Shown here: one piece after another, positions 10,811 through 49,381 of the stretch
How the letters are laid out: each line of letters begins with the position of its first letter
Position numbering within the stretch: position 1 is the first letter of the stretch
Sequence record: MF327009
Source of the DNA: Shigella phage Sf25
Direction: 5' to 3' (one strand)
DNA length: 64,000 bases
Notes under the pieces: generated by a model
What the model was told of the DNA's origin: nothing
The model's database searches: none
Seen by the model: only the letters and a program-made list of their open reading frames with translations
Made by a program: the position numbers and the translations under genes

Positions 10811-11226
10811 TCATATCATCGTTAGAAAGGAAAGTAAACAACTTTTTGAATTATTTTGCCCAGGGAGCCCAAGGCGGAGGGTCAAGATGGTATGAAGCTA
10901 GTTCTTCTAGAAGAGCATCTGGGGCTTCAATTCCATAATTCTGTAATACTATACGGTACTCTTTCTTATAATCACTAGAATCATTCTGGTTATTCGTAGA
11001 ATGATTATCTTCTAACATTCATATCATCGTTAGAAAGGAAAGTAAACAACTTTTTGAATTATTTTGCCCAGGGAGCCCAAGGCGGAGGGTCAAGATGGTA
11101 TGAAGCTAGTTCTTCTAGAAGAGCATCTGGGGCTTCAATTCCATAATTCTGTAATACTATACGGTACTCTTTCTTATAATCACTAGAATCATTCTGGTTA
11201 TTCGTAGAATGATTATCTTCTAACAT
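10811..11226. repeat. exact tandem duplication, 2 x 208 bp
   Basis: Unit tcatatcatcgttagaaagg...gattatcttctaacat occurs twice head-to-tail with no mismatch; covers codons 6-60 and 3' flank of the small ORF 11059..11241. Confidence 0.85.
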
Positions 11227-11241
11227 CTCAAATAAATCCAT
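11059..11241 (-). CDS. small hypothetical protein (60 aa); partial second copy downstream
   Basis: ORF track; truncated duplicate (from internal Met) lies in repeat copy at about 10851-11018. Confidence 0.35.
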   Translation of the reverse strand: MDLFEMLEDNHSTNNQNDSSDYKKEYRIVLQNYGIEAPDALLEELASYHLDPPPWAPWAK

Positions 11242-11249
11242 ATTAATTC

Positions 11250-11732
11250 CTAGCGATAAAAACCAAATTGACGATTAGCTTCAATAATCTTTCTTTCTTC
11301 TTCGGACATTCTCCAGCGTAGTCCAACATCAAAATGAGCCCAGACCATCTTAACAAATGCATTTATATCTTTAATATCTTCAATAATGAATGTTTTACTT
11401 TTAGAAGGTTGACCTGCTAAATTAAGTGCTAATTTAACTTTATCGTCTTCAAACAGGGCAAAAAGACCATATTCATGAGCTCTTTTATAGCCTTTAATAG
11501 TTAAAGCTTCAGAAGAAGAAAACGGTGAATCAGTATTCTGTAAAATATCTTCAGTATGCTTTATAATTAGAATAACATTTTCTGGATATTTTCTTTCTTT
11601 TATATCTTTAATTAAAATATCCGGATTTTCTGCTAAAGGAATAATTAATGAGCACTTTTTATCAAGTGTATTTACCGATTTACCTTCTTTAGACATAAAT
11701 TCTATTGAATAATGTTTTGCTACTTCAATCAT
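11250..11732 (-). CDS. hypothetical protein
   Basis: ORF track, 160 aa. Confidence 0.45.
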
Positions 11733-11885
11733 GTGATTTCCTCTTGCCTACTAATGGGCCGTCAGGAATTTTGTTTTCCTGGATATATTTCTCATTTTCT
11801 TCCATCATTTTACTGCCAATTTTAAGAAGCAAATCCAATGCTTCATTTGCTTTAGCCTTGGCCTCTTCTAGCGTCATATCTCTGT

Positions 11886-12089
11886 TCACGATTTATCCCC
11901 ATAGATGTCTCTCATCAATTTAAGCGCTGAGCGTTCTAATTTCTTTTCTTTCTCAACGCTAATCATTGATTTCATCCATTCTTCTGATTCGTTCTGCATT
12001 TCTTTATTTGCTTGTTCAACCCAACCATCATCAATGTACATTGAGTTTGGTCTATTGAACCATTCAAACATTTTCTTCAGAACTTTCAT
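11886..12089 (-). CDS. hypothetical protein
   Basis: ORF track, 67 aa. Confidence 0.35.
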
Positions 12090-12582
12090 TTGTTTTACCT
12101 AAAACAACAGTAGGAGCATCATCAAATTCATGAATTTTTAGCAAATTTGGATGTAAACTATTCCATACAGAAGAAATAAAGTATGATAAAGCATCTTCAC
12201 TCACAATTATAAATTTATTTCCTTTATCTATTTTCCAACTATATACTGAATCATACGAATAGAAAGATAAAGGTTTATCATTATAATGTTCTGTGCTAAC
12301 ATTAATGTATTCAGATTTAGTAAATGCTTCAATTGCTCTAAACGGAATATTTGGTACAGTTTCAATAATACCAATCTTTTTAAGTTTTATTTCAGCATCT
12401 TCTGGAACTGGCATTGAAACAAAATTTTCTACGAGATACATTGGGTCACAATAACCCTTATCAATCATTACTGCTACGGTAATTGGAACGTCTTTAGCAA
12501 ACGACATGCTATTACTGCTAATATACATTTCAAACAAAATCGCTTCCATATTTTTCCTCAATCGCAAGATGTAGATGAACAA
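12064..12582 (-). CDS. hypothetical protein
   Basis: ORF track, 172 aa. Confidence 0.45.
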
Positions 12583-12899
12583 CTAGAATCGCAAGAACTT
12601 CCACACGAATCGCCCGTCCATACATGAACAGGAACATTAGTGTCATATGAATCAGAACTAGACTGTGTATTCTGCGTATTAGATGATGTAGTAGGTGTTG
12701 ACCAGCGCCAAGGATTTTTATAATATTCTTGGGCTTCTTCATAAGTCATAGTAACTGCTTCTACTGTTCCATCTCCCATATAAACATATTCAACTACAGT
12801 TAAAGGAAGGTAGTCATTTGAAATAGGAACTACACCTTCCCCAGGAGTCGTAGAGAAAAAATCCGTAAAGAAACTTTTAAACCAATTAAAGATAAACAT
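12558..12899 (-). CDS. hypothetical protein with Cys/Ser-rich C-terminal tail
   Basis: C-terminus [18 protein letters not shown]. Confidence 0.4.
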
Positions 12900-13105
12900 T
12901 ACAAAAAGCCTCTTTTGAATTCAACTTGTTTATCGCCATAATCATATCGAATCTCTGCATTAAATTCAACAGAACCATCTGCGTACATCATAAATGAATG
13001 CACAACAACTTCTGTGGACCATGGCTGTAGTTCATATTTCTTCATTACATGTCGTGAAATGATAATATCTAAATCTTCATTTGGTTTAATCCAGCGATTT
13101 AACAT
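12899..13105 (-). CDS. hypothetical protein
   Basis: ORF track, 68 aa. Confidence 0.35.
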   Translation of the reverse strand: MLNRWIKPNEDLDIIISRHVMKKYELQPWSTEVVVHSFMMYADGSVEFNAEIRYDYGDKQVEFKRGFL

Positions 13106-13171
13106 AGTGCTCTCCTCTATAAGATAATTCTATTATACCATACTCATTTTGGAAAGTAAACCATTTAAATG

Positions 13172-13197
13172 AAAAAAGGACTCCCGAAGGAGTCCTT
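13172..13197 (-). terminator. intrinsic terminator after soc
   Basis: Minus-strand hairpin GGACTCC-TTCG-GGAGTCC followed by TTTTTT. Confidence 0.7.
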
Positions 13198-13201
13198 GAA
13201 T

Positions 13202-13447
13202 TTATTCACCAGTTACTTTCCACAAATCTTCATTTGCAGCAATCCATTCAGTACGTTGATTTTCTTCATATACTGTAGAATATGCTGCTTTTTCTGAAGG
13301 GAATATCTGGTAATGAGCGCCAGAAATTTTATGAACGTCAGAATAAAGAGGGAAAGCTACAGAAATTTCCTTTCCTTCAATTTTCTTATTTCCATCTAAT
13401 TTTTGCTCAAATGTTTTAATATTAACATAACCGCGAGTACTAGCCAT
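13202..13447 (-). CDS. soc: small outer capsid protein Soc
   Basis: 81-codon ORF MASTRGYVNIKTFEQKLDGNKKIEG..., near-identical to T4 Soc as recalled. Confidence 0.9.
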   Translation of the reverse strand: MASTRGYVNIKTFEQKLDGNKKIEGKEISVAFPLYSDVHKISGAHYQIFPSEKAAYSTVYEENQRTEWIAANEDLWKVTGE

Positions 13448-13530
13448 GTAATTCTCCTTTTATTTAAATTACATGATTATTTATAATAAATTCTCGCGGC
13501 TTTTAAGTCGTCGTTTATTTAAATGAGCTA

Positions 13531-14308
13531 TTAATAGCCTCGATCTTGACGAGCGAAGTTTTCAGCATTTTTCAGATAATAAAGTTTAAAGATTTCCTCA
13601 GCTGACATTCCAAGAGCAATGAATTTATTCATGAAAAAGTGAAATTGGTCAATCAGTTCAAATTTAATTTCAAGCTGATCTTCAGGAGATAAGTCTTGAA
13701 TTTTCTTGGATTGCATTTCAGAATAACGTTTCTTCCAAGGTTTCCATACAGCAGAAGCTTCTTTTTCACCATTACTCATACCACCAAGAGAAGTATATAG
13801 CTCGCGAGTTTCATCTGCGATATAATCGTCTTGGTTTCGCAACCAAGCAAGAACTTCTCCTGCAGTTTCAAGTGAATCAGGATGACGATTTGTTTCTGGT
13901 TTATCATTAGCCAAACGAATCTGTAAATGCCGCTGCATGTCAAATTTTCTTGGATTGCATTTCAGAATAACGTTTCTTCCAAGGTTTCCATACAGCAGAA
14001 GCTTCTTTTTCACCATTACTCATACCACCAAGAGAAGTATATAGCTCGCGAGTTTCATCTGCGATATAATCGTCTTGGTTTCGCAACCAAGCAAGAACTT
14101 CTCCTGCAGTTTCAAGTGAATCAGGATGACGATTTGTTTCTGGTTTATCATTAGCCAAACGAATCTGTAAATGCCGCTGCATGTCAAGCATAACCTGCAA
14201 TGGGTCAATACTGTGCATAATATACTCAGCATATGCACGATTTGCTTTATCAACACCTTCGATCAAATGAGCACATTCATTAAAGTGAGCCATTATTTTT
14301 CCTTTCAA
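13531..14308 (-). pseudogene. 56: dCTP pyrophosphatase gene 56 (MazG-like) disrupted by a 244-bp tandem duplication
   Basis: Two overlapping ORFs (13940..14308 and 13531..14016) share an identical 81-aa block; removing one repeat unit restores one ORF of about 171 aa at the gene 56 position between soc and dam. Confidence 0.7.
13699..14186. repeat. exact tandem duplication, 2 x 244 bp, inside gene 56
   Basis: Head-to-tail identical copies; unit length not a multiple of 3. Confidence 0.85.
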
Positions 14309-14353
14309 TTCATTAATAAGTTAAATAATTATATCATTTGAGTATGTAAGCAA

Positions 14354-15693
<1,340 letters not shown>

Positions 15694-15714
15694 TATATCA
15701 TCCTCAGCAATTTG

Positions 15715-15748
15715 TTTTATAATACCATAACAAGCTGAGAAAGTAAAC
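15715..15748 (-). promoter_or_regulatory. early-promoter-like site (GTTTAC -35, TGGTATTATAA -10) for the nuclease-like gene
   Basis: Minus strand reads GTTTAC-N17-TGGTATTATAA. Confidence 0.45.
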
Positions 15749-15786
15749 AAATTTATGATAAATATTAATTTAAAGGAGGACGACGC

Positions 15787-15987
15787 ATGGTACAAAAATT
15801 AATGGCACTTGTTAATGCCATCAAAGGTAATAAAAAACGTATAGCTTTTACTATTTCTGCTATGGTAGGAATTTTACTCTGGAACTTTATTTTATCACCT
15901 GTTGCAATTGCACATGGTATTAATATTCCAGTAGTTACTCTTGATACATTCGTAGATTTAGCATTTGCTTTAGTTGGGTTAATTTAA
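15787..15987 (+). CDS. small hydrophobic (two predicted TM) protein on the opposite strand
   Basis: Strong SD AAAGGAGGA 6 nt before ATG; fills the otherwise empty 290-bp gap between gene 61 and the nuclease-like gene. Confidence 0.3.
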   Translation: MVQKLMALVNAIKGNKKRIAFTISAMVGILLWNFILSPVAIAHGINIPVVTLDTFVDLAFALVGLI

Positions 15988-17012: not shown

Positions 17013-17014
17013 TT

Positions 17015-17179: not shown

Positions 17180-17180
17180 A

Positions 17181-20088: not shown

Positions 20089-20097
20089 ACTTACTCC

Positions 20098-22536: not shown

Positions 22537-23381
22537 TCACCGTTATAATCTTTTTTCACAATATGAGTTTCGCCAGTATTCCACCAATGATCAACCAAGT
22601 AAAAATGACGAGAATATACATGAAGACTTCCAACATTCCATATAATAGAACCTGCTTTATACTGACGAGTTGAATCGCCGGCATTCAAATCAGATACTAA
22701 TTTATCTAATACGTATTTTTGCCATGCATAATCATTACGGAATCCGAAGACCACGTCATTTGAGCGCATGCTTACTACTGCATTGACTTTCTTATCACGA
22801 ATCAGGTACTGTACTGTATTAGTACACATGAAATCTGACATACCATCTTTATTGTAGTCAAATTGCATGGATGGACGAGTCATGCTTACTACTGCATTGA
22901 CTTTCTTATCACGAATCAGGTACTGTACTGTATTAGTACACATGAAATCTGACATACCATCTTTATTGTAGTCAAATTGCATGGATGGACGAGTATAAAT
23001 CATGATACCACGTCGAGAATCAGGATTTTGACCAAGTTCAGCTAAACACATATCATACTGGGCATAGTTATCTTCTGACCAAATAGCCCAACCATAATTC
23101 GAGTTAATTTCGCCTTTAGAAGATGCTACCTGCTGCCAAATCTTTGGTGTTTCGCCTGGAATATCTTTGACAAACAGACTTTGAGACTTGTACCATTCAA
23201 GTTCACGCTGAATGTATTCATCATTAAGAGCGCCAAAAATAAAGGGTTCATCTGCTACAAATGATGCGCCAATAATTTCAATAGTTTTAACACCGGTTTT
23301 ATCAACTACGAAATCTTTTTCTTTTAATGCAAGCCCCAAATGAAGACGGATTTCTTCAACTGTCATAAAGTCACTAATCAT
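22527..23381 (-). CDS. 42: dCMP hydroxymethylase gp42 carrying an in-frame 38-aa tandem duplication (284 aa)
   Basis: Thymidylate-synthase-like fold; peptide VNAVVSMTRPSMQFDYNKDGMSDFMCTNTVQYLIRDKK occurs twice. Confidence 0.85.
   Translation of the reverse strand: MISDFMTVEEIRLHLGLALKEKDFVVDKTGVKTIEIIGASFVADEPFIFGALNDEYIQRELEWYKSQSLFVKDIPGETPKIWQQVASSKGEINSNYGWAIWSEDNYAQYDMCLAELGQNPDSRRGIMIYTRPSMQFDYNKDGMSDFMCTNTVQYLIRDKKVNAVVSMTRPSMQFDYNKDGMSDFMCTNTVQYLIRDKKVNAVVSMRSNDVVFGFRNDYAWQKYVLDKLVSDLNAGDSTRQYKAGSIIWNVGSLHVYSRHFYLVDHWWNTGETHIVKKDYNGEWK
22767..22994. repeat. exact tandem duplication, 2 x 114 bp, inside gene 42
   Basis: Identical head-to-tail copies, in frame. Confidence 0.85.
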
Positions 23382-24184: not shown

Positions 24185-24433
24185 TCAAATGCAAGTAGTA
24201 ATTACTCCAGTAGTGCTTATGCAGGTATTACCCATTTGCACACCTAAAGATCCATTTGTATTCACATGAAGATTATCATCAATTTTAACTGATATTTTAC
24301 CATTAGTGTGAATAACGGTGCTAGATTCAATCACAGGTTGAGTATCATTTTCAACACTAACAAATGGAACTGCTGCTAATGCAACTAAACAAACTGCTAA
24401 GCATCCCATAACAATTTTCATTTTATTCTCCAA
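24185..24433 (-). CDS. small secreted protein
   Basis: N-terminal signal peptide (MKIVMGCLAVCLVALAAVPFVS). Confidence 0.4.
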   Translation of the reverse strand: MENKMKIVMGCLAVCLVALAAVPFVSVENDTQPVIESSTVIHTNGKISVKIDDNLHVNTNGSLGVQMGNTCISTTGVITTCI

Positions 24434-24565
24434 ATCCGTATTAGTTGATAGTTGTATAGTACCATGGAAGAACAGTCTTGTAAACAGTTTTGTGAAAATT
24501 TTTTAGGGAATTCTAAAGGTCCAGAATCATCTGTTTTTCATAAGTATAGATTTATATTACTTGTA

Positions 24566-24601: not shown

Positions 24602-27445
24602 TCAGCCAAACAGGAAGTCTAACGAAGCTTTTTCTTCATAGTCCATACCAGCCGATTCACACATGCCTGCAAGCGGTTTAACAAACGATTTTTGGAACAA
24701 AGTTGAGTAGTCAATCCAAGACAGTACGTCAGAACGAATTTCTTTTGGAAGTTCTGTACCCGACGGCCAAGCAATGCATTTGTCACCAAATGGATTTCCT
24801 TCACGCAATGGAAGAACCATTACTTTATTTCCATCCAAAATTGGAGCTACACCTAAACCGCTAACAGCTCGACGATAAGTTAGCACACCACGAATATGGA
24901 ACGGACATTTAAATCCTGGCCAACCTTTATCATCATATTTCGCTATATCGTTCGCAGTTTTTACTTCAGCAATAACTTTATAGTCAAGTTGACGATATTC
25001 TTTCTCGAAGTTCTTGTAATATTCTTGGACAGACTCTTCACCTTCCTGAAGAATACGACGAATACTTTCTTCGAGAGCTTCTTGGACCGCTTTAGGCGTT
25101 GAACTCTGCTGAGTTTCCATACCCATGATTTTTAGATGCGGTTCAGCAAATCGCTTATCTTCCATATCATATACGTTCAGAGCATAACGCTTTTTCGCTT
25201 TCCAAAATCCGCCAACGCCCTTTGAACCAAGTGGAGGGCAAGAAATAGCTTCACGGTCCATATGCATCAGATGCTCGCGGTTATTCATATAATCACATAA
25301 CTCACGATATGCAACATCAATCATAGGTTCCATCTTTTTCTTACCGAACTGATTCATGAATTCAACTAAATCGTTCTGCTCTTTGAATCGGTCAAGACCA
25401 ACTTTTTCAATAACTTTATCTACACAAACATATACCGAATCAGTATCACCTGCTGCAATGAAATCTTCGCCATTAGTTCCGCATACTTTATTCAGATATT
25501 CATTAATTTTACGAGCAATCCACTGAATACCAACTTGGCCGAAAATTGTGATAGCAGTAGCATTTCGCAAATCATAGTAACGGAAATGAATATTACCAAG
25601 AGCACCATAAAGACTGTTAATAAGAATTTTACGGTTCAGCTGATTTGTGTTAGCAAGTGTAGCTGCTTTTTCACACTCTTCGATCAAACTATTAAGAACA
25701 GATTCGGTGTAATTCGATAGTTCATTTAAGAAATCATCACTGAACTTAACATATCGTTCAACTTCTGGTTTAGTTGAGCAAGACCCTGCGCCTTTCATAA
25801 TAATCTTTTTAATAGCTTCGGCATTCATTTCTTCAGCGAACATTTTCTTTTTCCAATCTTTACGCTGGAAAAATACTTTAGCGATTTCCTTTGGAATGAT
25901 ACCTTCTTGATGCTTATCATACATCCATCCATTCGGAGAACAAGAATATTCATCACTCGGTTTAGGAGCTGTTCCTGCGATATATTCATGAATTGGATGA
26001 ACTTTAAACTGACCACGAATAGTCTCAGGACTAATGTTAACCTGACGAATAATGCTCGGATACAGAGACGTCAAGTCAAAACTCATAATATATCGACGAG
26101 CAATTGGTTTAGGTTCAAACACAAATGCACCCGGAAAACTCTGTTTAACGTGCGAACCTTGTTGAGGAATAACCTTATGTTCACCTTTCAATGAGTTAAA
26201 AATAATAGCATCCCAAGTTTTAATAGGACTCATTACACCGGAAAAAGGCATTTTAGCGTAATAAGACATACTTAAAACTAGATCGATAAACCCGCGAATT
26301 TTATCAATTGCTTGAACTGATTCTACGTCAATGATGTTATAACTAATGTATCGTTGATGATTAGTCTCACGAAGTTTATTAATAGGACCGTCGTATGGTA
26401 ATTTACCTTTTTTGGTTTCATGTTGAGCAACTGATTCCAAAGAGAATGACGGCAAATTAGTAAAAGCGAATTTCTTGTACAAATCTAAATAATCAAGAAT
26501 AGATACGCCATCAATAGAATAAATTTCTTTGCTGCCGTACATATTTTGAATTAGTTTGGATTTTACCCGACCGATTGGAGAGAAACGTTTCATACTGCGT
26601 TCGCCTAGAATCATTTTAACACGATTCATGATATATGGAACGTCAAACCCCTCAATATTCCAACCGGTAAAAATAGCAGGTCGTTTCTGTTCCCAGAGAT
26701 TGATATATTCCATGAGCATATCACGCTCATTATCGAATGGCATATAAATTACTCGGTCAAGAATTTCTTGAGGAACTTCATCACCACCTTCACAGTCAAG
26801 CTTAGCAGCTAACTTTGCATCCCATTTTGATACTGAACCGTACATTGAATTCAAAAGGTCGAAAACATAAAAACGATCGTCAATTGAATCGTAATGAGTG
26901 ATAGCATCAATTTCATATTCAGCTTTCATTGGGTCAGGAAATTTATCACCAGTAACCTCAATGTCACAGTTAGCTACACGAACACCGTACATTGAATTCA
27001 AAAGGTCGAAAACATAAAAACGATCGTCAATTGAATCGTAATGAGTGATAGCATCAATTTCATATTCAGCTTTCATTGGGTCAGGAAATTTATCACCAGT
27101 AACCTCAATGTCACAGTTAGCTACACGAACAAATTTTCGGTCATAAACAATTTCTGAACCATATGTATCACTGATATAAGCGAGTTTAAAATCGTTCATA
27201 CCGAGAGCTTCGAGACCGATGTCTTCCATTCGCTTCATCCAATCTCGAGCATCTTTCATTGATGGAAATTTTTGAGGAGCGCAGTTTTTACCATAGATGT
27301 CTTTGTACTTTGACTCTTCCTTACAATGCCTAAACATAGTTGGAAGATATTCTACTTCACGAGTACGTTCCTTTCCATTTTCATCAATATAACGTTCAAC
27401 AATATTATTTCCGACTGTTTCAATAGAGATATAAAATTCTTTCAT
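24602..27445 (-). CDS. 43: DNA polymerase gp43 (family B) carrying an in-frame 49-aa tandem duplication (947 aa)
   Basis: Exo I (CDIEVTG), DTDS polymerase motif, KKRY; T4 gp43 is 898 aa; duplicated block RVANCDIEVTG...LLNSMYG. Confidence 0.95.
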   Translation of the reverse strand: MKEFYISIETVGNNIVERYIDENGKERTREVEYLPTMFRHCKEESKYKDIYGKNCAPQKFPSMKDARDWMKRMEDIGLEALGMNDFKLAYISDTYGSEIVYDRKFVRVANCDIEVTGDKFPDPMKAEYEIDAITHYDSIDDRFYVFDLLNSMYGVRVANCDIEVTGDKFPDPMKAEYEIDAITHYDSIDDRFYVFDLLNSMYGSVSKWDAKLAAKLDCEGGDEVPQEILDRVIYMPFDNERDMLMEYINLWEQKRPAIFTGWNIEGFDVPYIMNRVKMILGERSMKRFSPIGRVKSKLIQNMYGSKEIYSIDGVSILDYLDLYKKFAFTNLPSFSLESVAQHETKKGKLPYDGPINKLRETNHQRYISYNIIDVESVQAIDKIRGFIDLVLSMSYYAKMPFSGVMSPIKTWDAIIFNSLKGEHKVIPQQGSHVKQSFPGAFVFEPKPIARRYIMSFDLTSLYPSIIRQVNISPETIRGQFKVHPIHEYIAGTAPKPSDEYSCSPNGWMYDKHQEGIIPKEIAKVFFQRKDWKKKMFAEEMNAEAIKKIIMKGAGSCSTKPEVERYVKFSDDFLNELSNYTESVLNSLIEECEKAATLANTNQLNRKILINSLYGALGNIHFRYYDLRNATAITIFGQVGIQWIARKINEYLNKVCGTNGEDFIAAGDTDSVYVCVDKVIEKVGLDRFKEQNDLVEFMNQFGKKKMEPMIDVAYRELCDYMNNREHLMHMDREAISCPPLGSKGVGGFWKAKKRYALNVYDMEDKRFAEPHLKIMGMETQQSSTPKAVQEALEESIRRILQEGEESVQEYYKNFEKEYRQLDYKVIAEVKTANDIAKYDDKGWPGFKCPFHIRGVLTYRRAVSGLGVAPILDGNKVMVLPLREGNPFGDKCIAWPSGTELPKEIRSDVLSWIDYSTLFQKSFVKPLAGMCESAGMDYEEKASLDFLFG
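26837..27130. repeat. exact tandem duplication, 2 x 147 bp, inside gene 43
   Basis: Identical copies, in frame; includes the Exo I motif. Confidence 0.85.
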
Positions 27446-27787: not shown

Positions 27788-28115
27788 GTTTTTGTTTAAA
27801 AGAAATAACTCGGAAGTTATTAGTTAAATCTTTCATAAAAGTTCTTTGACCAGGAACGATTTCAATCAATCCCCAATCTTCTAACAACCATGCAATCGAA
27901 TCACGACGAACTTCATCTTCTTCTGCCATTTCAACTTGACGACCATCCATACGAAGCATTTCTTTAAAATGAACGATATAGTATAGTCCTTTTTTCTGAA
28001 GAATATGACAGGACTGATACAGAACTTTATCTTTATTATTAGCAATTCCCATACGAGTCAAAGTTTCTTTTACTTTCAGAAAATCTTCAGGTTTTTTAAG
28101 AGTAATTTCAATCAT
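27747..28115 (-). CDS. regA: RegA translational repressor, 122 aa
   Basis: 122-aa ORF MIEITLKKPEDFLKVKETLTRMG... at conserved position upstream of 43. Confidence 0.8.
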   Translation of the reverse strand: MIEITLKKPEDFLKVKETLTRMGIANNKDKVLYQSCHILQKKGLYYIVHFKEMLRMDGRQVEMAEEDEVRRDSIAWLLEDWGLIEIVPGQRTFMKDLTNNFRVISFKQKHEWKLVPKYTIGN

Positions 28116-28540
28116 TTTACCATTCCAATGCTAGTTTTTTGAGTTGTTTCTGTTCTTTTACGTTCTTAGTCACTTCTTTCAAAAAATCATATCTTCGACC
28201 AGTTTTGCCCATTTACCATATCTTTTACCACGAGGAACTGCAGCCATCAGATAATTAAAATGAGCTTCATCACTTAAGCCTGATCCAATTAAATTCATAG
28301 CATATACAGCTGGCATGCACTCTGGAAATTGTGATAATGCATTTTCAACCATGAATTTTGAATAATCTTTTTGAGCAATAGAGCATTTAGTTTTATTATT
28401 AATAGCTCCAATTATTTCAAAAAATTCATTTTCAGCTTTTTCTTTAAAAGAATCAGCAGCAGATTGGACAGCTGTCCAATCTTTTGAATACCAAGCAACT
28501 TGATGCTCGTTTAATTGAATATCATCTTCAAATAAGCTCA
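28116..28540 (-). pseudogene. 62: clamp-loader small subunit gene 62, frameshifted/truncated
   Basis: ORF ends prematurely (KLVEDMIF-stop, about 120 aa); conserved C-terminal peptide [23 protein letters not shown] is in the +1 frame ending at the regA start; about 46 codons missing versus T4 gp62 (187 aa). Confidence 0.6.
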
Positions 28541-38706: not shown

Positions 38707-38864
38707 ATCAATTCCTCAAAGGTAATTCATATGTTAATAATACCACGGTTTGAACTTGTTGTAAACAACTTTGTGAAAAATATTTTAGGGAATGATAAGA
38801 AAGGAACGATAGCTTAGAATGGTAATATACAGAATGCGAGAAAGAAAGGCCCAGAGGGCCCGTC

Positions 38865-39502: not shown

Positions 39503-39973
39503 TTAATCATGTTTCCACACCCCATCGGTATTTGACCAAAGTCGCTGATTATCTGATCCTCGCCACAGCTTTTTGGTCGGAAGATTTTTCTCATACTTCC
39601 CATCAATAATAACATCAACATATTTAAGCATTTCTAGTTGTTTAATATCTTCAAATTTATATCCTGTCCACAACCAAATGCTTTTATTGGGATAAAGATT
39701 TTTTACTGTTTGAACAATGCAATGAACAACATCTCGGTTATCAGGATAGAGAGGGTCTCCTCCAGTTATAGTTAATCCTTCTATATAATCATTATTCAAA
39801 CATTCAATTAATTGTTCTAGTGTTTCACCAGTGAATGGAACACCGTTTCTAGCGTTCCATGTTGATTTATTATAACACCCTTCGCATTTATGCAAACAAC
39901 CTGTAACGAAAAGAACGACCCTGCAACCAGGGCCATTCACAAAATCACAAGGATAAAATCTATCATAATTCAT
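39503..39973 (-). CDS. nrdG: anaerobic ribonucleotide reductase activating protein NrdG (radical SAM), 156 aa
   Basis: CxxxCxxC cluster (CLHKCEGC); stop/start overlap with nrdD. Confidence 0.85.
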   Translation of the reverse strand: MNYDRFYPCDFVNGPGCRVVLFVTGCLHKCEGCYNKSTWNARNGVPFTGETLEQLIECLNNDYIEGLTITGGDPLYPDNRDVVHCIVQTVKNLYPNKSIWLWTGYKFEDIKQLEMLKYVDVIIDGKYEKNLPTKKLWRGSDNQRLWSNTDGVWKHD

Positions 39974-40227
39974 TGATGCTTAACCCTATGCATGATTTCT
40001 TTATTTTTACCGAGATTAAATCCGCGCTCGTTAGGATTTCCCAAATAACCAACACCCTTCGCATTTATGCAAACAACCTGTAACGAAAAGAACGACCCTG
40101 CAACCAGGGCCATTCACAAAATCACAAGGATAAAATCTATCATAATTCATTGATGCTTAACCCTATGCATGATTTCTTTATTTTTACCGAGATTAAATCC
40201 GCGCTCGTTAGGATTTCCCAAATAACC
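39874..40227. repeat. exact tandem duplication, 2 x 177 bp, at the nrdD/nrdG junction
   Basis: Identical copies; second copy carries an orphan duplicate of the nrdG start region and a duplicate nrdD 3' end. Confidence 0.8.
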
Positions 40228-42980: not shown

Positions 42981-43085
42981 TTAAGTCATTTATTGTTGGT
43001 TCATTATATACTGTTTCTTCATCAGTGTAAACCGGTTCTTCCGGCTCTGGCTCTACAGTTTCCCATCTAGCCGCCCACCAAGGTT

Positions 43086-43406: not shown

Positions 43407-43416
43407 TTTTCACCAA

Positions 43417-43805: not shown

Positions 43806-44065
43806 TTAAAGTATTCCCGCAATTGGTCAAATCCACCAATATGACTTCCATCAGGAGCAAATACTTGTGGCATCGTCAAACCAATTTGAGTATCACGACC
43901 TAGTTTCGTCAGAAGCTCAGCAATTTTCTCATCATCAAAAACACCTTTTTCCGGCATAATGTTGATAAATTCAAACGGCTGTTTCTTTACAGTCAAAAGA
44001 CGTTTTGCATTATCGCAATACACACATTTATGGATGTTGCTATTATAACCATATACTTTAAACAT
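43802..44065 (-). CDS. nrdC: thioredoxin/glutaredoxin NrdC, 87 aa
   Basis: CVYC active site, 87 aa as T4 NrdC. Confidence 0.8.
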   Translation of the reverse strand: MFKVYGYNSNIHKCVYCDNAKRLLTVKKQPFEFINIMPEKGVFDDEKIAELLTKLGRDTQIGLTMPQVFAPDGSHIGGFDQLREYFK

Positions 44066-44066
44066 A

Positions 44067-44309
44067 TTATTCCTTAATTCCTAGTACTTGTTTAAAAGTC
44101 TCGTCGTAATCAAGACTTTGACCCGTTTGTTCTTTATGTTTGTATATAATATCACTTACTTCTGATAGCATATTTTTATATGAACGAGTTAAAGCAGATT
44201 TAAGCACGCTGTATCTATCAGGAAATTTACCATGTTCATTATAATAAGCTATTGCTAATTCACGGACTGCCTTTTCAGCAGCCTCCATATATTCTTTACG
44301 CTTGGTCAT
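44067..44309 (-). CDS. hypothetical protein
   Basis: ORF track. Confidence 0.4.
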
Positions 44310-44311
44310 TT

Positions 44312-44701
44312 TTAATCCAAAATATTATTAGGCATTGGTTGAACACTCACAAGTTCTTTAAAGAACTCAGTAGAGTCAGGCAATTTAACCATTTCCGGAG
44401 CATGCTTACTGAATTTATGTTTACATTGACGGCATTTATATTCAAGCTCTGGTTTACGCCAGTTAATCAATTGAACTTGTTCAGTACCGCATTCAGGGCA
44501 ATTAGGAACGTTTTTAGAAGCCCTTTCACGACGTTCAACCATAACCATAATAGCATCCCATGCTGGAGGTTTAAAATCTAAATCGTCGCAGCCGTGAATC
44601 TTTCCACGCATTTCCATATCATCTTCCTCACCAGCCATAATAATTTTAATTAAACTGGAATTACTTGAAGCTGCAATGTCTTCTAATAAACGCTTTTTCA
44701 T
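44312..44701 (-). CDS. zinc-ribbon containing hypothetical protein
   Basis: CPECG...CRQCKHKF. Confidence 0.45.
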
Positions 44702-45447
44702 TTCAATACCTCAATAGCATTACGTAAACCATTTGCTTTTGCATTAAGAGCTTTTAACAATTTGGTGTGTTCTGCAATTTGGGCTTCAACTTCAATCAAA
44801 CGGGCATTGAGATATTCACGTTCTTCACTCAGATTATCAACCTTTTCTACTTTAGGCTCTTTTACAACTGTCTTATATGTATTAGGGTTCTTCAGTTTAA
44901 TTAGAATGCGTGAACTGTATAACATTGAACCATTATCTTCGGTTTCGTCATACATTTCCACTACGTCCATAATTTTTAACATCATGCGGAGTTTATAAGA
45001 CAACGAACGAATAGTTTTGTTGTGCTTATTAATTTCTTTAGCTGTCATGGTGCCAAGATTACGTGAGTAATAATAAGGAACCTGGATATTAATTAATACT
45101 GATGAACCACCTGGCTTGTGTGTTACTTCATCAGCAATAACCCAGTCCTTAACATGAACTGTATTTGTACGGTCATCGCCCGCGGTAAATAGTTTGCGAG
45201 CATGCTTAAAAAGCATATTCACTTGGTCATTGAATTGACAAGCAAATTTATCAGCAAATTTAGTTTCAGGAATGGTAGAAAACCAATCAGCCAAATGAGT
45301 CTTTTTAACATCATTAACAATAGTAAATTCAACCAAATCGGTTATAGATGTCTCAGATTTAATGAAGCTCGGCTTCATAAAGTTTTTAATGTTCTCATGA
45401 GCTACAGTAGAAGATAACATACGAGAACGTTTAAACCATTCAAGCAA
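44698..45447 (-). CDS. hypothetical protein with C-terminal coiled coil
   Basis: C-terminal heptad-rich segment. Confidence 0.45.
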   Translation of the reverse strand: MLEWFKRSRMLSSTVAHENIKNFMKPSFIKSETSITDLVEFTIVNDVKKTHLADWFSTIPETKFADKFACQFNDQVNMLFKHARKLFTAGDDRTNTVHVKDWVIADEVTHKPGGSSVLINIQVPYYYSRNLGTMTAKEINKHNKTIRSLSYKLRMMLKIMDVVEMYDETEDNGSMLYSSRILIKLKNPNTYKTVVKEPKVEKVDNLSEEREYLNARLIEVEAQIAEHTKLLKALNAKANGLRNAIEVLK

Positions 45448-45632
45448 ATTGCCTAACGAATGAGAATAAGCGTTTTGAGTATCTTTACAGATATGATTTT
45501 CCTGACCAACATATTGAAGGAAATCACGAAGAATATTATTGATTACTGCTCTGTGTCCTATCTGATAATTACGATGTTTAGTAATAAGACTGTGGTTAAT
45601 GGTTTATACTCCGAGCCATACTTGGCTTTAAA

Positions 45633-46934
45633 TTACTTAATTAACTGTAAAGCTTGTTCAAGACGATCAAGACGATTAACGGATTCTTCCCAAATCTTTT
45701 TAGCACTTTCATATTCTTTTTCTGCTTTATTTTTAATTTCTAAAGCTTCTTTATAAGCTTTTTCTAGTGCAATAACTTCTGGACGAATTTCTATTGGCTC
45801 AGGAGAATCATCGAGCCAATCCATCAATTCTTCAAGTGTGGTTTCTTCTTTAGGAGCATTCACAATTTCTTCACATTTCTTCTGATGAATTTCTTTATCT
45901 GTTAGTGAATAAGCACATTTCACTTCACGAAGACTAATTACAATTTTATATCCTTCCCATCCGCATATATTCTTAAAAGGATATGTATGAATATTTTCTA
46001 CTGTTTCCATACAAAGTAATGCAGTCTCTAACTGACGAGTTATAGTGCTAGCAATTGAGAAAAATTTATTAATATTCTTTTGGTTAGCGTTTGGTGTAAA
46101 AAATCCATAATTCACAAAAATAGCTACTTTATTTTCATCAAGCTCATATTCTAGTGAATAAGCACATTTCACTTCACGAAGACTAATTACAATTTTATAT
46201 CCTTCCCATCCGCATATATTCTTAAAAGGATATGTATGAATATTTTCTACTGTTTCCATACAAAGTAATGCAGTCTCTAACTGACGAGTTATAGTGCTAG
46301 CAATTGAGAAAAATTTATTAATATTCTTTTGGTTAGCGTTTGGTGTAAAAAATCCATAATTCACAAAAATAGCTACTTTATTTTCATCAAGCTCATATTC
46401 TTTTACGATAATCATATCAGAAGCCAAAGGATGAATTTGACGATAATCGCCATAACATAATTTAGAAGCTGATTTTAGAATTTGTCCTTTGAAAAGTCTG
46501 AAATTACTAATCCAACGACGAGTAAAAATATTCTCAGGGTCTTCTTTATTATTAAGATGATAAGAATTAACATCACCGAACCAATTATATCCTACTACAT
46601 CTTTGGTTCGTTTAATTTCTTTCCCAAAATTACCAAGAATATCCCGATTAACCAAATATGAAAGAAGACGAGACTCTTTAAAGGTTTTCTTGATATTATC
46701 TTTATCTACACGGCTAGAAATTTTACGAATTTCATGAATAAATTTAGTAGAAGAAACAATACTTGCATCAACACTATTGAGCCATTGATTGATAATGGAA
46801 AGAACGATATTTTGACCAAACATCGGTATAGCTTTATCATCAATAACGCTATTGAATGATTTGATATATTCGTTACGAGTCATATTAATCTCCTCAGTAG
46901 AAAGTAAGAACATTATACCACATCCTTGTGGCAA
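45633..46934 (-). CDS. hypothetical protein with C-terminal coiled coil, carrying an in-frame 83-aa tandem duplication
   Basis: Block EYELDENKVAIFVNYGFF...REVKCAYSL repeated twice; shares FRLFKGQILKSASKL-like motif with next ORF. Confidence 0.5.
   Translation of the reverse strand: MPQGCGIMFLLSTEEINMTRNEYIKSFNSVIDDKAIPMFGQNIVLSIINQWLNSVDASIVSSTKFIHEIRKISSRVDKDNIKKTFKESRLLSYLVNRDILGNFGKEIKRTKDVVGYNWFGDVNSYHLNNKEDPENIFTRRWISNFRLFKGQILKSASKLCYGDYRQIHPLASDMIIVKEYELDENKVAIFVNYGFFTPNANQKNINKFFSIASTITRQLETALLCMETVENIHTYPFKNICGWEGYKIVISLREVKCAYSLEYELDENKVAIFVNYGFFTPNANQKNINKFFSIASTITRQLETALLCMETVENIHTYPFKNICGWEGYKIVISLREVKCAYSLTDKEIHQKKCEEIVNAPKEETTLEELMDWLDDSPEPIEIRPEVIALEKAYKEALEIKNKAEKEYESAKKIWEESVNRLDRLEQALQLIK
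45903..46400. repeat. exact tandem duplication, 2 x 249 bp
   Basis: Identical head-to-tail copies, in frame. Confidence 0.85.
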
Positions 46935-46941
46935 AGTAAAC
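46912..46941 (-). promoter_or_regulatory. early-promoter-like site
   Basis: Minus strand reads GTTTAC-N17-TGGTATAATG. Confidence 0.45.
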
Positions 46942-48215
46942 TAGTTCAGTGCATTTAGTGCATTGTTCAGTTTAGAACGTTGCTTCGTGAGATTTTTGAC
47001 TTTTTCTTGTGCTTTTTCTAGCATCTTTTCAGCTTCTAACACTTCATTGGTCGCTTTAACGAGTTCATCATCTACTGCCTTAAGGGACTTCTCAATCGCA
47101 TCCGCGTGCCATTTTTCAACAGGTTTAAGACTCGGATTTTCAATAGGAAGAAAATTCACTTTATTGAATTTCCATGCATCTTTATTACCTGAACTATACA
47201 TCCAAAATTTAGGATCGTTTGATGAGTAATTGGATAAATTTAAATTTAAGTTATCTTGCACTTCTTGCTTTTTCTCTTGCGTGACTTCGTCCTTTCTCAA
47301 AAAATCGTATTTAAATGAAACGATCATATCAAGTTCATATGTTGTTGTGTCTAATTTAAATCGTTCGAAATGCTGTGAAATCTTAGACTGAATAGGAAGA
47401 AAATTCACTTTATTGAATTTCCATGCATCTTTATTACCTGAACTATACATCCAAAATTTAGGATCGTTTGATGAGTAATTGGATAAATTTAAATTTAAGT
47501 TATCTTGCACTTCTTGCTTTTTCTCTTGCGTGACTTCGTCCTTTCTCAAAAAATCGTATTTAAATGAAACGATCATATCAAGTTCATATGTTGTTGTGTC
47601 TAATTTAAATCGTTCGAAATGCTGTGAAATCTTAGACTGAACAGCAGCAACAACATCCATATACTTAAATGCTTCTGTCAACTGTGATTTAAGACATTCG
47701 CAAATTGAAAGAGAATTTTTTGTATTAGGTTTAAAGCTAATTCGTGCAGTTCTATTATTTTCTTTTAATGGTCTTACTTCCATCTGAAGAGTATAACCAT
47801 CAAATTTCAGGTTCTTTAAGTTAATATCAGAACCTTTTAATCGACTCGCAGTTGATAAAATTTGCTTTAATTGTCTACGGAATAGAGCAATAAATCTCCA
47901 TTCAATACGATAATGATTTGGATTGAAAAATCCAGATGATAAATCGACCTTACTTTGACCAACGCCTTGAACAAATAGAGGATTTTTATAATCAATAGTT
48001 TTACAGAAATCGGTTAGCTGCTCACGAGCAGTCATTTGTGTAATATACCCCGCTTTACTAAAATGACGTAACCATTCACTGCTATTCATATATTTAAAGT
48101 GAATATCACGATTAACTTTATCAGGGTCTAAATTATTTTGGCACAAAAATGTCATAACATCACGAGTATAGCTGGCATTACGAATCATATCTTCAATTTG
48201 AGAACGAGTTTTCAT
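46941..48215 (-). CDS. hypothetical protein with C-terminal coiled coil, carrying an in-frame 83-aa tandem duplication
   Basis: Block QSKISQHFERFKLDTTTYEL...KVNFLPI repeated twice. Confidence 0.5.
   Translation of the reverse strand: MKTRSQIEDMIRNASYTRDVMTFLCQNNLDPDKVNRDIHFKYMNSSEWLRHFSKAGYITQMTAREQLTDFCKTIDYKNPLFVQGVGQSKVDLSSGFFNPNHYRIEWRFIALFRRQLKQILSTASRLKGSDINLKNLKFDGYTLQMEVRPLKENNRTARISFKPNTKNSLSICECLKSQLTEAFKYMDVVAAVQSKISQHFERFKLDTTTYELDMIVSFKYDFLRKDEVTQEKKQEVQDNLNLNLSNYSSNDPKFWMYSSGNKDAWKFNKVNFLPIQSKISQHFERFKLDTTTYELDMIVSFKYDFLRKDEVTQEKKQEVQDNLNLNLSNYSSNDPKFWMYSSGNKDAWKFNKVNFLPIENPSLKPVEKWHADAIEKSLKAVDDELVKATNEVLEAEKMLEKAQEKVKNLTKQRSKLNNALNALN
47142..47639. repeat. exact tandem duplication, 2 x 249 bp
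   Basis: Identical head-to-tail copies, in frame. Confidence 0.85.
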
Positions 48216-48223
48216 GGTGTTCC

Positions 48224-49381
48224 TTAAGATTTAAGTAAATCAACAATTTTAATTAACTTTTCACGCTCGGATTTAGCTTTACTACTCAGTCCAGATAGTC
48301 TGAAAATTTCATCATCATATTGTTGAATAGAAATATTCAGCTCTTCAATCTGTTTATTAAAATAATCAATTTGTTCAGAATGTTTTTCGTTACTACGAAC
48401 TGGTACAGGTTTTGTAGGCAATTTAGTTGAACTGGATTCATCCGGGCGATAAATTAAAATACAACTTGAACCAATAGGGCATTTTGCACCAGATGAATAT
48501 TCTAATGTTCCAGCTTCTTTTAAAACTTCAAAAGCTAAACAGAGATGATGCCCCATATTAACATAATCTGTAGAGTGAGCTCTGATCAGCTCTTCAATCT
48601 GTTTATTAAAATAATCAATTTGTTCAGAATGTTTTTCGTTACTACGAACTGGTACAGGTTTTGTAGGCAATTTAGTTGAACTGGATTCATCCGGGCGATA
48701 AATTAAAATACAACTTGAACCAATAGGGCATTTTGCACCAGATGAATATTCTAATGTTCCAGCTTCTTTTAAAACTTCAAAAGCTAAACAGAGATGATGC
48801 CCCATATTAACATAATCTGTAGAGTGAGCTCTGATGTAATAATCATCTCCACGAATACTAAATTTAAAGCATTTAAGGTCTTCTGTATTATTGGTCTTAA
48901 AAATCATTTGTTTATCTAGACCTTTAGCTAATCGAGCGCCTAATGCTAATAATCGTCGTTGATTTTCCCACAAATCCGCAATCATTTGATCGAATGATAA
49001 TTTCGGCATTAGTCGACCATAAAGGTCATATCCTTTATTATAATTGCGAAGGATTTCACTCGCATTAATACGAGACAACGCTCCAATTTTATTAAGGGCT
49101 TTCATGATGCGATTAGATAAACCCATTCCAGACCCGTTTGTTCGTTGTAAATGTTTATCTAATCCAAACCCAATATCAACTTTAAATTTATCTAAAATTT
49201 CAGCATGAACATCTCTGTCAATAACATTCAAATCCAAAGTTTGGTTAAATCTATGAAAAAATTTATCTGGCTCTCCACGACGAAGTACAGTCCATTCATT
49301 CAATTTTTTATTAACTAAAGATTTAATTACTGCATTGACATTATTAATTACTACTGACATATTTTCCTCACTCAATTTCAA
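48224..49381 (-). CDS. hypothetical protein with C-terminal coiled coil, carrying an in-frame 83-aa tandem duplication
   Basis: Block IRAHSTDYVNMGHHLCLAFEV...NKQIEEL repeated twice. Confidence 0.5.
   Translation of the reverse strand: MKLSEENMSVVINNVNAVIKSLVNKKLNEWTVLRRGEPDKFFHRFNQTLDLNVIDRDVHAEILDKFKVDIGFGLDKHLQRTNGSGMGLSNRIMKALNKIGALSRINASEILRNYNKGYDLYGRLMPKLSFDQMIADLWENQRRLLALGARLAKGLDKQMIFKTNNTEDLKCFKFSIRGDDYYIRAHSTDYVNMGHHLCLAFEVLKEAGTLEYSSGAKCPIGSSCILIYRPDESSSTKLPTKPVPVRSNEKHSEQIDYFNKQIEELIRAHSTDYVNMGHHLCLAFEVLKEAGTLEYSSGAKCPIGSSCILIYRPDESSSTKLPTKPVPVRSNEKHSEQIDYFNKQIEELNISIQQYDDEIFRLSGLSSKAKSEREKLIKIVDLLKS
48337..48834. repeat. exact tandem duplication, 2 x 249 bp
   Basis: Identical head-to-tail copies, in frame. 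Confidence 0.85.

What the first reader, a model, noticed from the sequence alone, without database searches (positions are those of the whole stretch)
10811..48834. Pattern: eight zero-divergence tandem duplications (114-249 bp) concentrated in essential and conserved genes
All eight repeats are perfect, head-to-tail, with only 1-4 bp of junction microhomology. Seven are in frame or outside coding sequence; three share exactly 249 bp in adjacent genes. Natural duplications of this kind are unstable and rare in compact T-even genomes, and several hit genes that cannot tolerate insertions (43, 42, 56). Together with the gene 62 deletion, this points to engineered or simulated lesions, an assembly/consensus artefact, or a very recently mutagenised or recombination-defective lineage, rather than an evolved system.
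Basis: inference. Interest (0 to 1): 0.7.

Follow-up and report, generated by a model that had tools for sequence, protein, structure and literature searches.

The report
Assembly seams in a T4-like phage
The eight perfect duplications, plus four short deletions of the same origin, are seams left by assembly software that joined overlapping pieces of a T4-like phage genome, not mutations or an evolved system.

Summary
There are eight perfect two-copy tandem duplications (208, 244, 114, 147, 177, 249, 249, 249 bp). No relative checked at any of these sites has them. I also found four window-unique deletions (156, 139, 47, 145 bp).

The sequence cannot be a viable phage. Genes 56 and 62 are frameshifted, and the catalytic cores of gp42 and gp43 are duplicated.

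The decisive result concerns where the joined pieces end. At eight piece ends cleanly, and three more conditionally, a piece ends exactly 248 nt after, or starts exactly 249 nt before, the nearest base at which the window differs from its closest relative, Shigella phage Sf24. Two of these anchor positions were predicted before I looked.

This fixed word length (~249-250 nt) tied to SNPs against another genome points to a k-mer or overlap-graph assembly. The most likely setting is ~250-nt reads from a sample that also held a Sf24-like strain.
- Flanks shared with that strain were written twice, giving the duplications.
- Where two anchor SNPs are p2-p1 apart, the duplication is 498-(p2-p1) bp.
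- Where p2-p1 exceeds 498, the bases between are lost, giving the deletions.

The same rule explains the in-frame bias, because 249 and 498 are multiples of 3 and the SNPs sit at third codon positions. It also explains the apparent preference for conserved genes, because a seam needs a SNP-free stretch of at least 249 nt.

Verdict: artefact, low biological interest.

The parts
10811..11226 (.). Seam 1: 2 x 208 bp. It covers the 3' part of ModA.2 plus the intergenic region. ModA.2 (11059-11241, minus strand, 60 aa) stays intact.
   Evidence: The left piece ends at 11018, which is SNP 10770 + 248. The right piece starts at 11019, which is SNP 11268 - 249. Both positions were predicted and then found.
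13699..14187 (.). Seam 2: 2 x 244 bp inside gene 56 (dCTPase). It causes a frameshift. The N-terminal fragment of 117 aa stops at the junction, and the downstream fragment lacks residues 1-36.
   Evidence: A window-specific SNP at 13693 lies 249 nt before the piece end (13942), one off the usual 248.
22767..22994 (.). Seam 3: 2 x 114 bp in gene 42 (dCMP hydroxymethylase). Residues 130-167 are duplicated, including the FMC motif with the catalytic Cys. The protein is 284 aa instead of 246.
   Evidence: The right piece starts at 22881, which is SNP 23130 - 249 (clean). The left piece ends at 22880, which is SNP 22632 + 248 (one further Sf24 SNP at 22680 lies between). 114 = 498 - 384.
26837..27131 (.). 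Seam 4: 2 x 147 bp in gene 43 (DNA polymerase). Residues 106-154 are duplicated, including the DIE Exo I motif. The protein is 947 aa instead of 898.
   Evidence: 26735 + 248 = 26983 and 27233 - 249 = 26984. Both anchors are Sf24 SNPs, but three other Sf24 SNPs lie between them. The 947-aa protein is not on record in public assemblies.
39874..40227 (.). Seam 5: 2 x 177 bp across the nrdD stop and nrdG start. Both ORFs remain intact (605 aa and 156 aa), now separated by a 173-nt partial copy.
   Evidence: No anchor SNP was found in Sf24 or KRT47 at the predicted positions 39802 and 40300.
45903..46401 (.). Seam 6: 2 x 249 bp in nrdC.4 (+83 aa).
   Evidence: The left flank is a novel allele about 10% divergent. 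The last non-Sf24 base is 45904, and the piece ends at 46152, which is 45904 + 248. The rest of the unit is 100% identical to Sf24 and KRT47.
47142..47641 (.). Seam 7: 2 x 249 bp in nrdC.5 (424 aa instead of 341).
   Evidence: The left 245 nt are KRT47-type (9 differences from Sf24). The last such base is 47144, and the piece ends at 47392, which is 47144 + 248. From unit position 76 onward the sequence is Sf24-type.
48337..48835 (.). Seam 8: 2 x 249 bp in nrdC.6 (+83 aa).
   Evidence: The left flank and the unit are Sf24-identical. The right piece starts at 48586, and the first non-Sf24 base is 48835, which is 48586 + 249. About 3% divergence follows.
9990..9991 (.). Gap seam a: 156 bp missing from modA (148 aa here, 200 aa in all relatives). 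No microhomology.
   Evidence: The right piece has a Sf24/RB5 SNP at +248, one off the rule. The left end is unmatched.
28190..28191 (.). Gap seam b: 139 bp missing from gene 62 (clamp-loader subunit). It causes a frameshift: 117 native residues followed by MIF and a stop. Relatives have 187 aa.
   Evidence: The left piece ends at 28190, which is the last non-Sf24 base 27942 + 248 (clean). The right end is unmatched.
45592..45593 (.). Gap seam c: 47 bp missing. This removes the ribosome-binding site, the start codon and the first ~11 codons of nrdC.3.
   Evidence: All ten best GenBank records listed span these 47 bp as two-piece matches, and none gives a contiguous match (389 records cover at least 80% of the query). 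No anchors were found.
55403..55404 (.). Gap seam d: 145 bp missing. This removes the 3' end of mobD.6, a terminator-like hairpin and the upstream part of the next promoter.
   Evidence: The left piece ends at 55403, which is the last non-Sf24 base 55155 + 248 (clean). The right end is unmatched.

Best explanation
The window is a genuine T4-like (Tequatrovirus) genome sequence that software wrote out as about 13 consecutive pieces with uncorrected joins.

Each piece that carries bases specific to this strain extends a fixed word length into sequence it shares with a second, Sf24-like genome: 249 nt before its first specific base and 248 nt after its last. This is how contigs behave in a de Bruijn or overlap graph with a word of about 249-250 nt. 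The most likely source is ~250-nt reads from a sample holding two closely related phages, where the graph branches wherever the two strains start or stop being identical.

Three kinds of join follow:
- A strain-specific piece next to a shared piece. The 249-nt shared flank is written twice. These are the three 249-bp duplications.
- Two strain-specific pieces joined directly across a short identical stretch. Their flanks overlap, and 498-(p2-p1) bp appear twice. This gives 208, 114 and 147 bp (checked), and presumably 177 and 244 bp.
- The same direct join where the identical stretch is longer than both flanks together. The middle is lost. These are the deletions of 47-156 bp.

Shown here: the lesions, their uniqueness to this sequence, their lethality, and the fixed 248/249-nt offsets.

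Inferred: the kind of software, the 250-nt reads, the presence of a second strain, and the reason some short shared pieces were skipped (for example read-pair scaffolding across them).
For: 1. Uniqueness. All 12 lesions are absent from every relative I compared at that site: 15 genomes and metagenome contigs for the lesions at 9.9-28.2 kb, Sf24 and KRT47 for the later ones, and the GenBank records for the 47-bp deletion. Relatives uniformly encode gp43 of 898 aa, gp42 of 246, gp62 of 187, gp56 of 171-172 and ModA of 200.

2. Fixed offsets to SNPs against Sf24.
- A piece ends exactly 248 nt after its last non-Sf24 base, with no other Sf24 difference in between, at 10770->11018, 27942->28190, 55155->55403, 45904->46152 and 47144->47392.
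- A piece starts exactly 249 nt before its first non-Sf24 base at 11019->11268, 22881->23130 and 48586->48835.
- Three further ends fit if the partner strain differs from Sf24 at a few intervening sites.
- Two ends are off by one.
- Positions 10770 and 11268 were predicted from the rule before the alignments were made.
- My hand estimate of the chance per end is at most about 1e-3.

3. The rule reproduces the duplication lengths: 208 = 498-290, 114 = 498-384, 147 = 498-351.

4. It explains the in-frame bias. 249 and 498 are multiples of 3, and anchor SNPs 22632, 23130, 26735 and 27233 are all third codon positions (my calculation).

5. Junction microhomology is at chance level. Real T4 amplifications and deletions use 6-10 bp (PMC9391042).

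6. The genome as written is non-viable. Genes 56 and 62 are frameshifted. Numbered T4 genes are those defined by conditional-lethal mutants (PMC6071114), and the clamp loader is essential for replication (abstract of 10.1101/2023.10.18.562948).

7. The base-level sequence is otherwise natural and accurate. gp41, gp39 and Dda are identical in protein sequence to many public copies, and every difference in dda is synonymous.

8. Published behaviour of assemblers fits. Contig ends overlap perfectly by n or n-1 of the largest k, and coexisting strains break de Bruijn graphs (PMC7111523).
Against: - Eight of about 24 piece ends have no anchor SNP in the relatives I could examine: both ends of seam 5, the right end of seam 2, the left end of gap a, both ends of gap c, and the right ends of gaps b and d. 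The partner strain therefore cannot be GenBank Sf24 itself and may differ from region to region.
- The 249-before / 248-after asymmetry does not match any textbook unitig definition I could derive. Two ends deviate by one base.
- At least one expected shared-to-specific junction, inside 46152-47392, shows no seam, so most joins were made correctly. I cannot say why these twelve were not.
- No reads, assembly metadata or source record were available. The source genome was not found in GenBank phages, IMG/VR, JGI metagenome contigs or the public protein-to-contig index.
Confidence: 0.72

Rival explanations
1. The seams have the same computational origin, but the second genome was a reference sequence rather than a co-occurring strain. 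A reference-guided consensus or patching pipeline locally rebuilt every cluster of differences from a Sf24-like reference with ~249-nt anchors, then pasted the patches in without removing the anchors.
For: The anchors are SNPs against Sf24, the best GenBank match. The 249/248 asymmetry looks like half-open interval arithmetic in a script (inference).
Against: Several Sf24 differences lie inside flanks that should then have been SNP-free: 22680, 26840, 26879, 27161 and 28230. Eight piece ends have no Sf24 anchor. GenBank Sf24 therefore cannot be the reference, and an unpublished close relative would be needed.
Confidence: 0.17
2. The lesions are deliberately planted or simulated structural variants (random tandem duplications and deletions capped at about 250 bp) added to a real genome.
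For: The copies are perfect, microhomology is at chance level, essential genes are hit without regard to function, and sizes are 47-249 bp with three at the maximum.
Against: Random placement cannot put at least eight breakpoints at exactly 248/249 nt from SNPs against one particular relative. It also cannot make duplication lengths equal 498 minus the SNP spacing.
Confidence: 0.03
3. The lesions are genuine, very recent duplications and deletions in a phage lineage or in defective genomes, for example from a mutator or template-switching replisome or from illegitimate recombination between co-infecting phages.
For: T4 does form tandem amplifications and compensating deletions rapidly (PMC9391042). 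The window is a natural mosaic of Sf24-like and KRT47-like tracts, so co-infection and recombination did occur in its history.
Against: - Known T4 events use 6-10 bp microhomology, amplify whole loci and delete non-essential regions. Here microhomology is at chance level, units are intragenic, and genes 56 and 62 are destroyed.
- Twelve events with zero divergence sit in a sequence with no accompanying point damage.
- No biological process counts 248/249 nt from a SNP against another genome.
Confidence: 0.02
4. Each seam is a chimeric join of contigs from two different strains, with copy 1 from one strain and copy 2 from the other.
For: Average identity to Sf24 differs between neighbouring pieces. 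The nearest relative switches close to seams 6, 7, 8 and gap c.
Against: Both copies are identical and both carry the window-type bases (TA at 45903-4, T at 47144). The haplotype is continuous across seams 2 and 3. All pieces therefore come from one haplotype, and the switches are natural mosaic boundaries that merely determine where the graph branched.
Confidence: 0.04

Closest known systems
Perfect k-mer-length overlaps at contig or scaffold ends of de Bruijn graph assemblers, and fragmentation caused by coexisting strains (Chen et al. 2020, PMC7111523). In QUAST terms these would be 'local misassemblies' (my own knowledge).
   Same: The overlaps are perfect and have a constant length set by the largest word size (n or n-1). 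Contigs end where closely related strains start or stop being identical. The ends carry non-unique sequence.
   Different: Here the overlaps were not merged but written out twice inside one sequence. Short shared pieces were skipped, which gives variable overlaps of 498-(p2-p1) and small deletions. The implied word of about 249-250 nt is unusually large. The offsets are asymmetric (249 before, 248 after).
T4 segmental amplification of dmd-tifA with compensating deletions (Srikant, Guegler and Laub 2022, PMC9391042), and classical rII tandem duplications.
   Same: Head-to-tail duplications and deletions in a T-even genome, recent and therefore undiverged.
   Different: The real events are flanked by 6-10 bp microhomology, span whole genes (kilobases, often more than two copies), are selected, and are balanced by deletions of non-essential DNA. 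The window has chance-level microhomology, 114-249-bp intragenic units, exactly two copies, and frameshifts in essential genes.
False duplications in genome assemblies from uncollapsed overlaps or haplotypes (recalled from memory: Kelley and Salzberg 2010; Ko et al. 2022; not read here).
   Same: Adjacent identical copies are created by the assembly process and produce spurious gene-content changes.
   Different: Those cases usually involve heterozygous haplotypes kept as separate contigs and are kilobases long. Here the copies are word-length flanks of pieces from a single haplotype.

Membership tests
Uncollapsed contig-end overlaps or gaps from a graph assembly (local misassembly) | The copies are exactly identical, head to tail, with arbitrary junction sequence | tested here: met
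   100% identity, no indels, 0-2 bp microhomology, which is chance level
Uncollapsed contig-end overlaps or gaps from a graph assembly (local misassembly) | The overlap length is a constant set by word or read length | tested here: met
   Three seams are exactly 249 bp. In the three other seams where both anchors were found, the length equals 498 minus the SNP spacing
Uncollapsed contig-end overlaps or gaps from a graph assembly (local misassembly) | Piece ends lie at a fixed word-length distance from variants against a second, closely related sequence (graph branch points) | tested here: met
   Eight clean, three conditional and two off-by-one matches to Sf24 SNPs out of about 24 ends. Two were predicted in advance. 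Eight ends are unmatched.
Uncollapsed contig-end overlaps or gaps from a graph assembly (local misassembly) | No read spans the junctions, depth or allele evidence shows a second strain, and the assembler's k is known | not testable with these tools
   No reads or metadata were available, and the source record was not found
Microhomology-mediated tandem duplication or deletion in T4 | Short direct repeats (about 6-10 bp) at the boundaries, with one copy retained at the junction | tested here: not met
   0-2 bp at all 12 junctions, against 6-10 bp reported in PMC9391042
Microhomology-mediated tandem duplication or deletion in T4 | The resulting genome is viable, with lesions tolerated or selected | tested here: not met
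   Genes 56 and 62 are frameshifted, and the catalytic motifs of gp42 and gp43 are duplicated inside folded domains
Evolved tandem-repeat array or domain duplication | Divergence between copies, presence in relatives, and copy-number variation | tested here: not met
   Divergence is zero, there are exactly two copies, and the duplications are absent from every relative compared at each site
Randomly simulated structural variants | Breakpoints are independent of the sequence content of other genomes | tested here: not met
   Breakpoints are tied to SNPs against Sf24 at 248/249 nt

The most novel reading that the evidence does not exclude
The seams could be real scars of recombination or template switching between two co-infecting T4-like phages. 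In that reading, strand exchange or re-priming would be measured over a fixed tract of about 250 nt from the nearest mismatch, giving duplications or deletions at the crossover points of a natural mosaic genome. The lethal lesions would be carried in a complemented, mixed population.
Probability: 0.01. Interest if true: 0.85.

Novelty: not a real feature. Interest (0 to 1): 0.1.

Why it matters
For biology, very little. There is no new system here.

For data quality, it does matter. Taken at face value, the sequence reports a DNA polymerase with a duplicated exonuclease motif, a duplicated active site in dCMP hydroxymethylase, broken genes 56 and 62, and three 'domain duplications' in nrdC.4-.6. 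All of these are false.

The analysis also gives a reusable forensic test. If the breakpoints of perfect duplications and short deletions lie at a constant distance from SNPs against the nearest relative, the lesions are assembly seams. The constant reveals the word or read length, and the SNPs reveal the hidden second strain, all from the finished sequence alone.

The underlying phage is a natural mosaic of Sf24-like, KRT47-like and novel tracts, and it would be recoverable by collapsing the eight seams and refilling the four gaps.

Tried and rejected
1. Searching for the source or parent genome. None of these found it, so the parent is not in these collections, or is withheld from them:
- the duplicated gp43 and a rare MotB.2-like allele looked up by exact protein;
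- the junction 28-mer and a rare-allele 36-mer searched in IMG/VR and JGI metagenome contigs;
- GenBank phages searched by DNA and by protein.

2. The two-strain chimera model, with each copy from a different strain. Rejected because both copies carry the same window-type bases and the haplotype is continuous across seams 2 and 3.

3. Suspicion of synthetic recoding, raised because Dda is protein-identical to relatives at only 94% DNA identity. Rejected because the relatives differ among themselves in the same purely synonymous way.

4. Codon-aligned design of the duplications. Not significant. One of four informative cases is aligned at 1/3 chance and three at 2/3 chance, while modA and gene 56 are not aligned (hand calculation).

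5. Enrichment in essential genes. Not significant.

6. The link between the 55403 breakpoint and a 22-nt repeat. This is trivial: the natural promoter-region repeat is simply cut short by the deletion.

7. An exact textbook de Bruijn geometry (k-1 or k on both sides). It does not reproduce the 249/248 asymmetry, so the software remains unidentified.

8. Further scripted analysis. The scripting machine was lost, so later SNP-distance measurements were made by counting alignment columns by hand.


Full report
**What is there.**
Tandem Repeats Finder and an exact 20-mer self-comparison agree on eight two-copy, head-to-tail, 100%-identical duplications:
- 10811-11226 (period 208)
- 13699-14187 (244)
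- 22767-22994 (114)
- 26837-27131 (147)
- 39874-40227 (177)
- 45903-46401 (249)
- 47142-47641 (249)
- 48337-48835 (249)

Nothing else in the window repeats exactly for more than 24 bp, and there are no inverted repeats of 30 bp or more. Junction microhomology is 0,1,0,1,0,1,2,1 bp. The mean of 0.75 equals the chance expectation for this base composition (my calculation).

**What the window is.**
It is a Tequatrovirus (T4-like) genome segment running from gene 39 to e.2, with nearly all genes on the minus strand. The best GenBank match is Shigella phage Sf24, about 98.5% identical over 10-52 kb. Shigella phage KRT47 is best over 50-64 kb. The first 10 kb are only 94.4% identical to anything in GenBank phages.

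The homologous regions of Sf24 and KRT47 contain no tandem repeat with a period above 24 bp.

**Where the duplications fall.**
Mapped onto the Sf24 annotation:
- Seam 1 covers the 3' end of ModA.2 plus the intergenic region. The gene stays intact.
- Seam 2 is in gene 56.
- Seam 3 is in gene 42.
- Seam 4 is in gene 43.
- Seam 5 spans the nrdD/nrdG boundary. Both ORFs stay intact.
- Seams 6, 7 and 8 are in nrdC.4, nrdC.5 and nrdC.6.

**The set is larger than reported, and it is unique to this sequence.**
BLAST of the window against 15 independent relatives covering the first 30 kb (GenBank genomes and ENA metagenome contigs) breaks at the same places in every one that aligns there. These are the first four duplications (1-4), a 156-bp deletion at 9990|9991 and a 139-bp deletion at 28190|28191. 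For the lesions beyond 30 kb the comparison rests on Sf24 and KRT47.

Alignments confirm four deletions:
- 156 bp in modA, giving 148 aa where all relatives have 200
- 139 bp in gene 62
- 145 bp at 55403|55404, removing the 3' end of mobD.6, a hairpin and part of a promoter
- 47 bp at 45592|45593, removing the ribosome-binding site and start of nrdC.3. All ten best GenBank records listed span these 47 bp as two-piece matches, and none gives a contiguous match (389 records cover at least 80% of the query).

All four have 0-1 bp of microhomology.

**Consequences for the encoded phage.**
- Gene 62 is frameshifted: 117 native residues followed by MIF and a stop.
- Gene 56 is split into a 117-aa N-terminal fragment and a fragment lacking residues 1-36.
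- gp43 carries a second copy of residues 106-154, which include the DIE exonuclease motif.
- gp42 carries a second copy of residues 130-167, which include the catalytic-cysteine motif.

Numbered T4 genes are those defined by conditional-lethal mutants (PMC6071114). The clamp loader is essential for DNA replication (abstract of 10.1101/2023.10.18.562948). The sequence as written is therefore not a viable phage.

At base level, however, the sequence is clean and natural:
- gp41, gp39 and Dda are identical in protein sequence to many public copies.
- All 73-80 differences in dda are synonymous, as they are among the relatives themselves.
- Every other large ORF has the length seen in relatives (searches compared with 5, 6, 22).

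**The decisive evidence.**
I first tested whether the seams join contigs of different strains. That simple model fails. Both copies of each unit carry the same window-type bases, and the haplotype is continuous across seams 2 and 3.

The alignments did reveal a fixed geometry relative to Sf24. A piece ends exactly 248 nt after its last non-Sf24 base, with no other Sf24 difference in between, at:
- 45904 -> 46152 (seam 6)
- 47144 -> 47392 (seam 7)
- 27942 -> 28190 (gene 62 gap)
- 55155 -> 55403 (mobD.6 gap)

A piece starts exactly 249 nt before its first non-Sf24 base at:
- 48586 -> 48835 (seam 8)
- 22881 -> 23130 (seam 3)

From this rule I predicted anchor SNPs at 10770 and 11268 for seam 1. 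Both were then found: A versus G, and T versus G.

Other ends:
- The left end of seam 3 (22632 -> 22880) and both ends of seam 4 (26735 -> 26983; 26984 -> 27233) also land on Sf24 SNPs. Other Sf24 SNPs lie in between, so the partner sequence is Sf24-like rather than Sf24 itself.
- Two ends are off by one.
- Eight ends have no anchor in the relatives available.

For a random position, the chance that the nearest upstream SNP lies at exactly the required distance is at most about 1e-3 (my estimate). Eight clean hits among about 24 ends cannot be coincidence.

**What the rule explains.**
If p1 and p2 are the flanking anchor SNPs, the two flanks overlap by 498-(p2-p1).
- This gives 208 (p2-p1 = 290), 114 (384) and 147 (351), as observed.
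- If p2-p1 exceeds 498, that many bases minus 498 are lost. These are the deletions.
- Where a strain-specific piece abuts a retained shared piece, the overlap is the full 249 nt. These are the three identical lengths in nrdC.4-.6.

The in-frame bias follows from the same rule. Both 249 and 498 are multiples of 3, and SNPs between close relatives sit at third codon positions. I checked that 22632 and 23130 (gene 42) and 26735 and 27233 (gene 43) are all third positions.

The apparent preference for conserved genes follows too, because a seam requires a SNP-free stretch of at least 249 nt. Hits in essential genes (4 of 12) are not significantly above their ~22% share of the window.

**Interpretation.**
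A constant word of about 249-250 nt, measured from differences to another genome, is a property of k-mer or overlap graphs and not of DNA metabolism. Published experience matches this. De Bruijn assemblers leave perfect overlaps of n or n-1 (the largest k) at contig ends, and they fragment where closely related strains coexist (PMC7111523).

The most economical scenario has three parts:
1. ~250-nt reads from a sample that held this phage and a Sf24-like relative. Sf24 and KRT47, the two relatives of which the window is a mosaic, were both isolated from the same river.
2. A graph that branched wherever the two strains differ.
3. A joining step that concatenated pieces without trimming overlaps and jumped over short shared pieces.

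A reference-guided patching pipeline with ~249-nt anchors is a close variant that I cannot exclude. Real T4 amplifications and deletions differ in every testable respect. They use 6-10 bp microhomology, amplify whole loci in multiple copies, and compensate by deleting non-essential DNA (PMC9391042).

**Limits.**
- I could not identify the software.
- The 249/248 asymmetry is unexplained.
- Some ends lack anchors.
- At least one expected junction, inside 46152-47392, shows no seam.
- No reads were available, and the source genome was not found in any collection searched.
- After the scripting machine was unavailable, so SNP distances were counted by hand from alignment columns. I rechecked each count against the invariant-column lists.

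**Verdict.**
This is not a biological feature.

Noticed in passing
window 1-9990, especially 4723-5223 (minus strand): The first 10 kb are only 94.4% identical to the best GenBank phage. The MotB.2-region gene at 4723-5223 is a new allele: 51% amino-acid identity to the Sf24 homologue, at best 89% to any GenBank phage, and absent from the public protein-to-contig index. The underlying phage is a lineage not represented in the collections searched.
   Followed up: partly
window 13.9-22.2 kb, 27.9-40.3 kb, 47.1-48.8 kb (Sf24-type); 46.9-47.1 kb and 50-64 kb (KRT47-type); 45593-45904 (novel): The genome is a fine-scale natural mosaic of tracts almost identical to Sf24, tracts close to KRT47, and novel alleles. 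Sf24 and KRT47 were both isolated from the Red Cedar River, Michigan, which suggests a local recombining population and a likely source for the mixed sample.
   Followed up: partly
window 50378-50399 and 55383-55404; also 24415-24465, 38759-38780, 51785-51869: A 22-24-nt motif (GATAGTTGTATAGTACCACAG and relatives) recurs in intergenic regions just upstream of genes. At 55.4 kb in relatives it lies next to a terminator-like hairpin. This resembles the promoter-early/stem-loop cassettes described for T4-type phages (PMC2839356, listed but not read).
   Followed up: no
window 13485-13531 compared with L001 13699-14105: Two small genes between soc and gene 56 in Sf24 (gp155, gp156) are absent from the window. 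RB5 and several metagenome contigs lack them too, so this is a natural presence/absence polymorphism and not a seam.
   Followed up: partly
window 61609-62416 compared with L002 12305-13204: Between vs.8 and e the window and KRT47 carry two internal-protein genes, annotated IpII and IpIII in KRT47. Sf24 carries an Ip4-like gene plus denV at that position, a natural cassette exchange.
   Followed up: no
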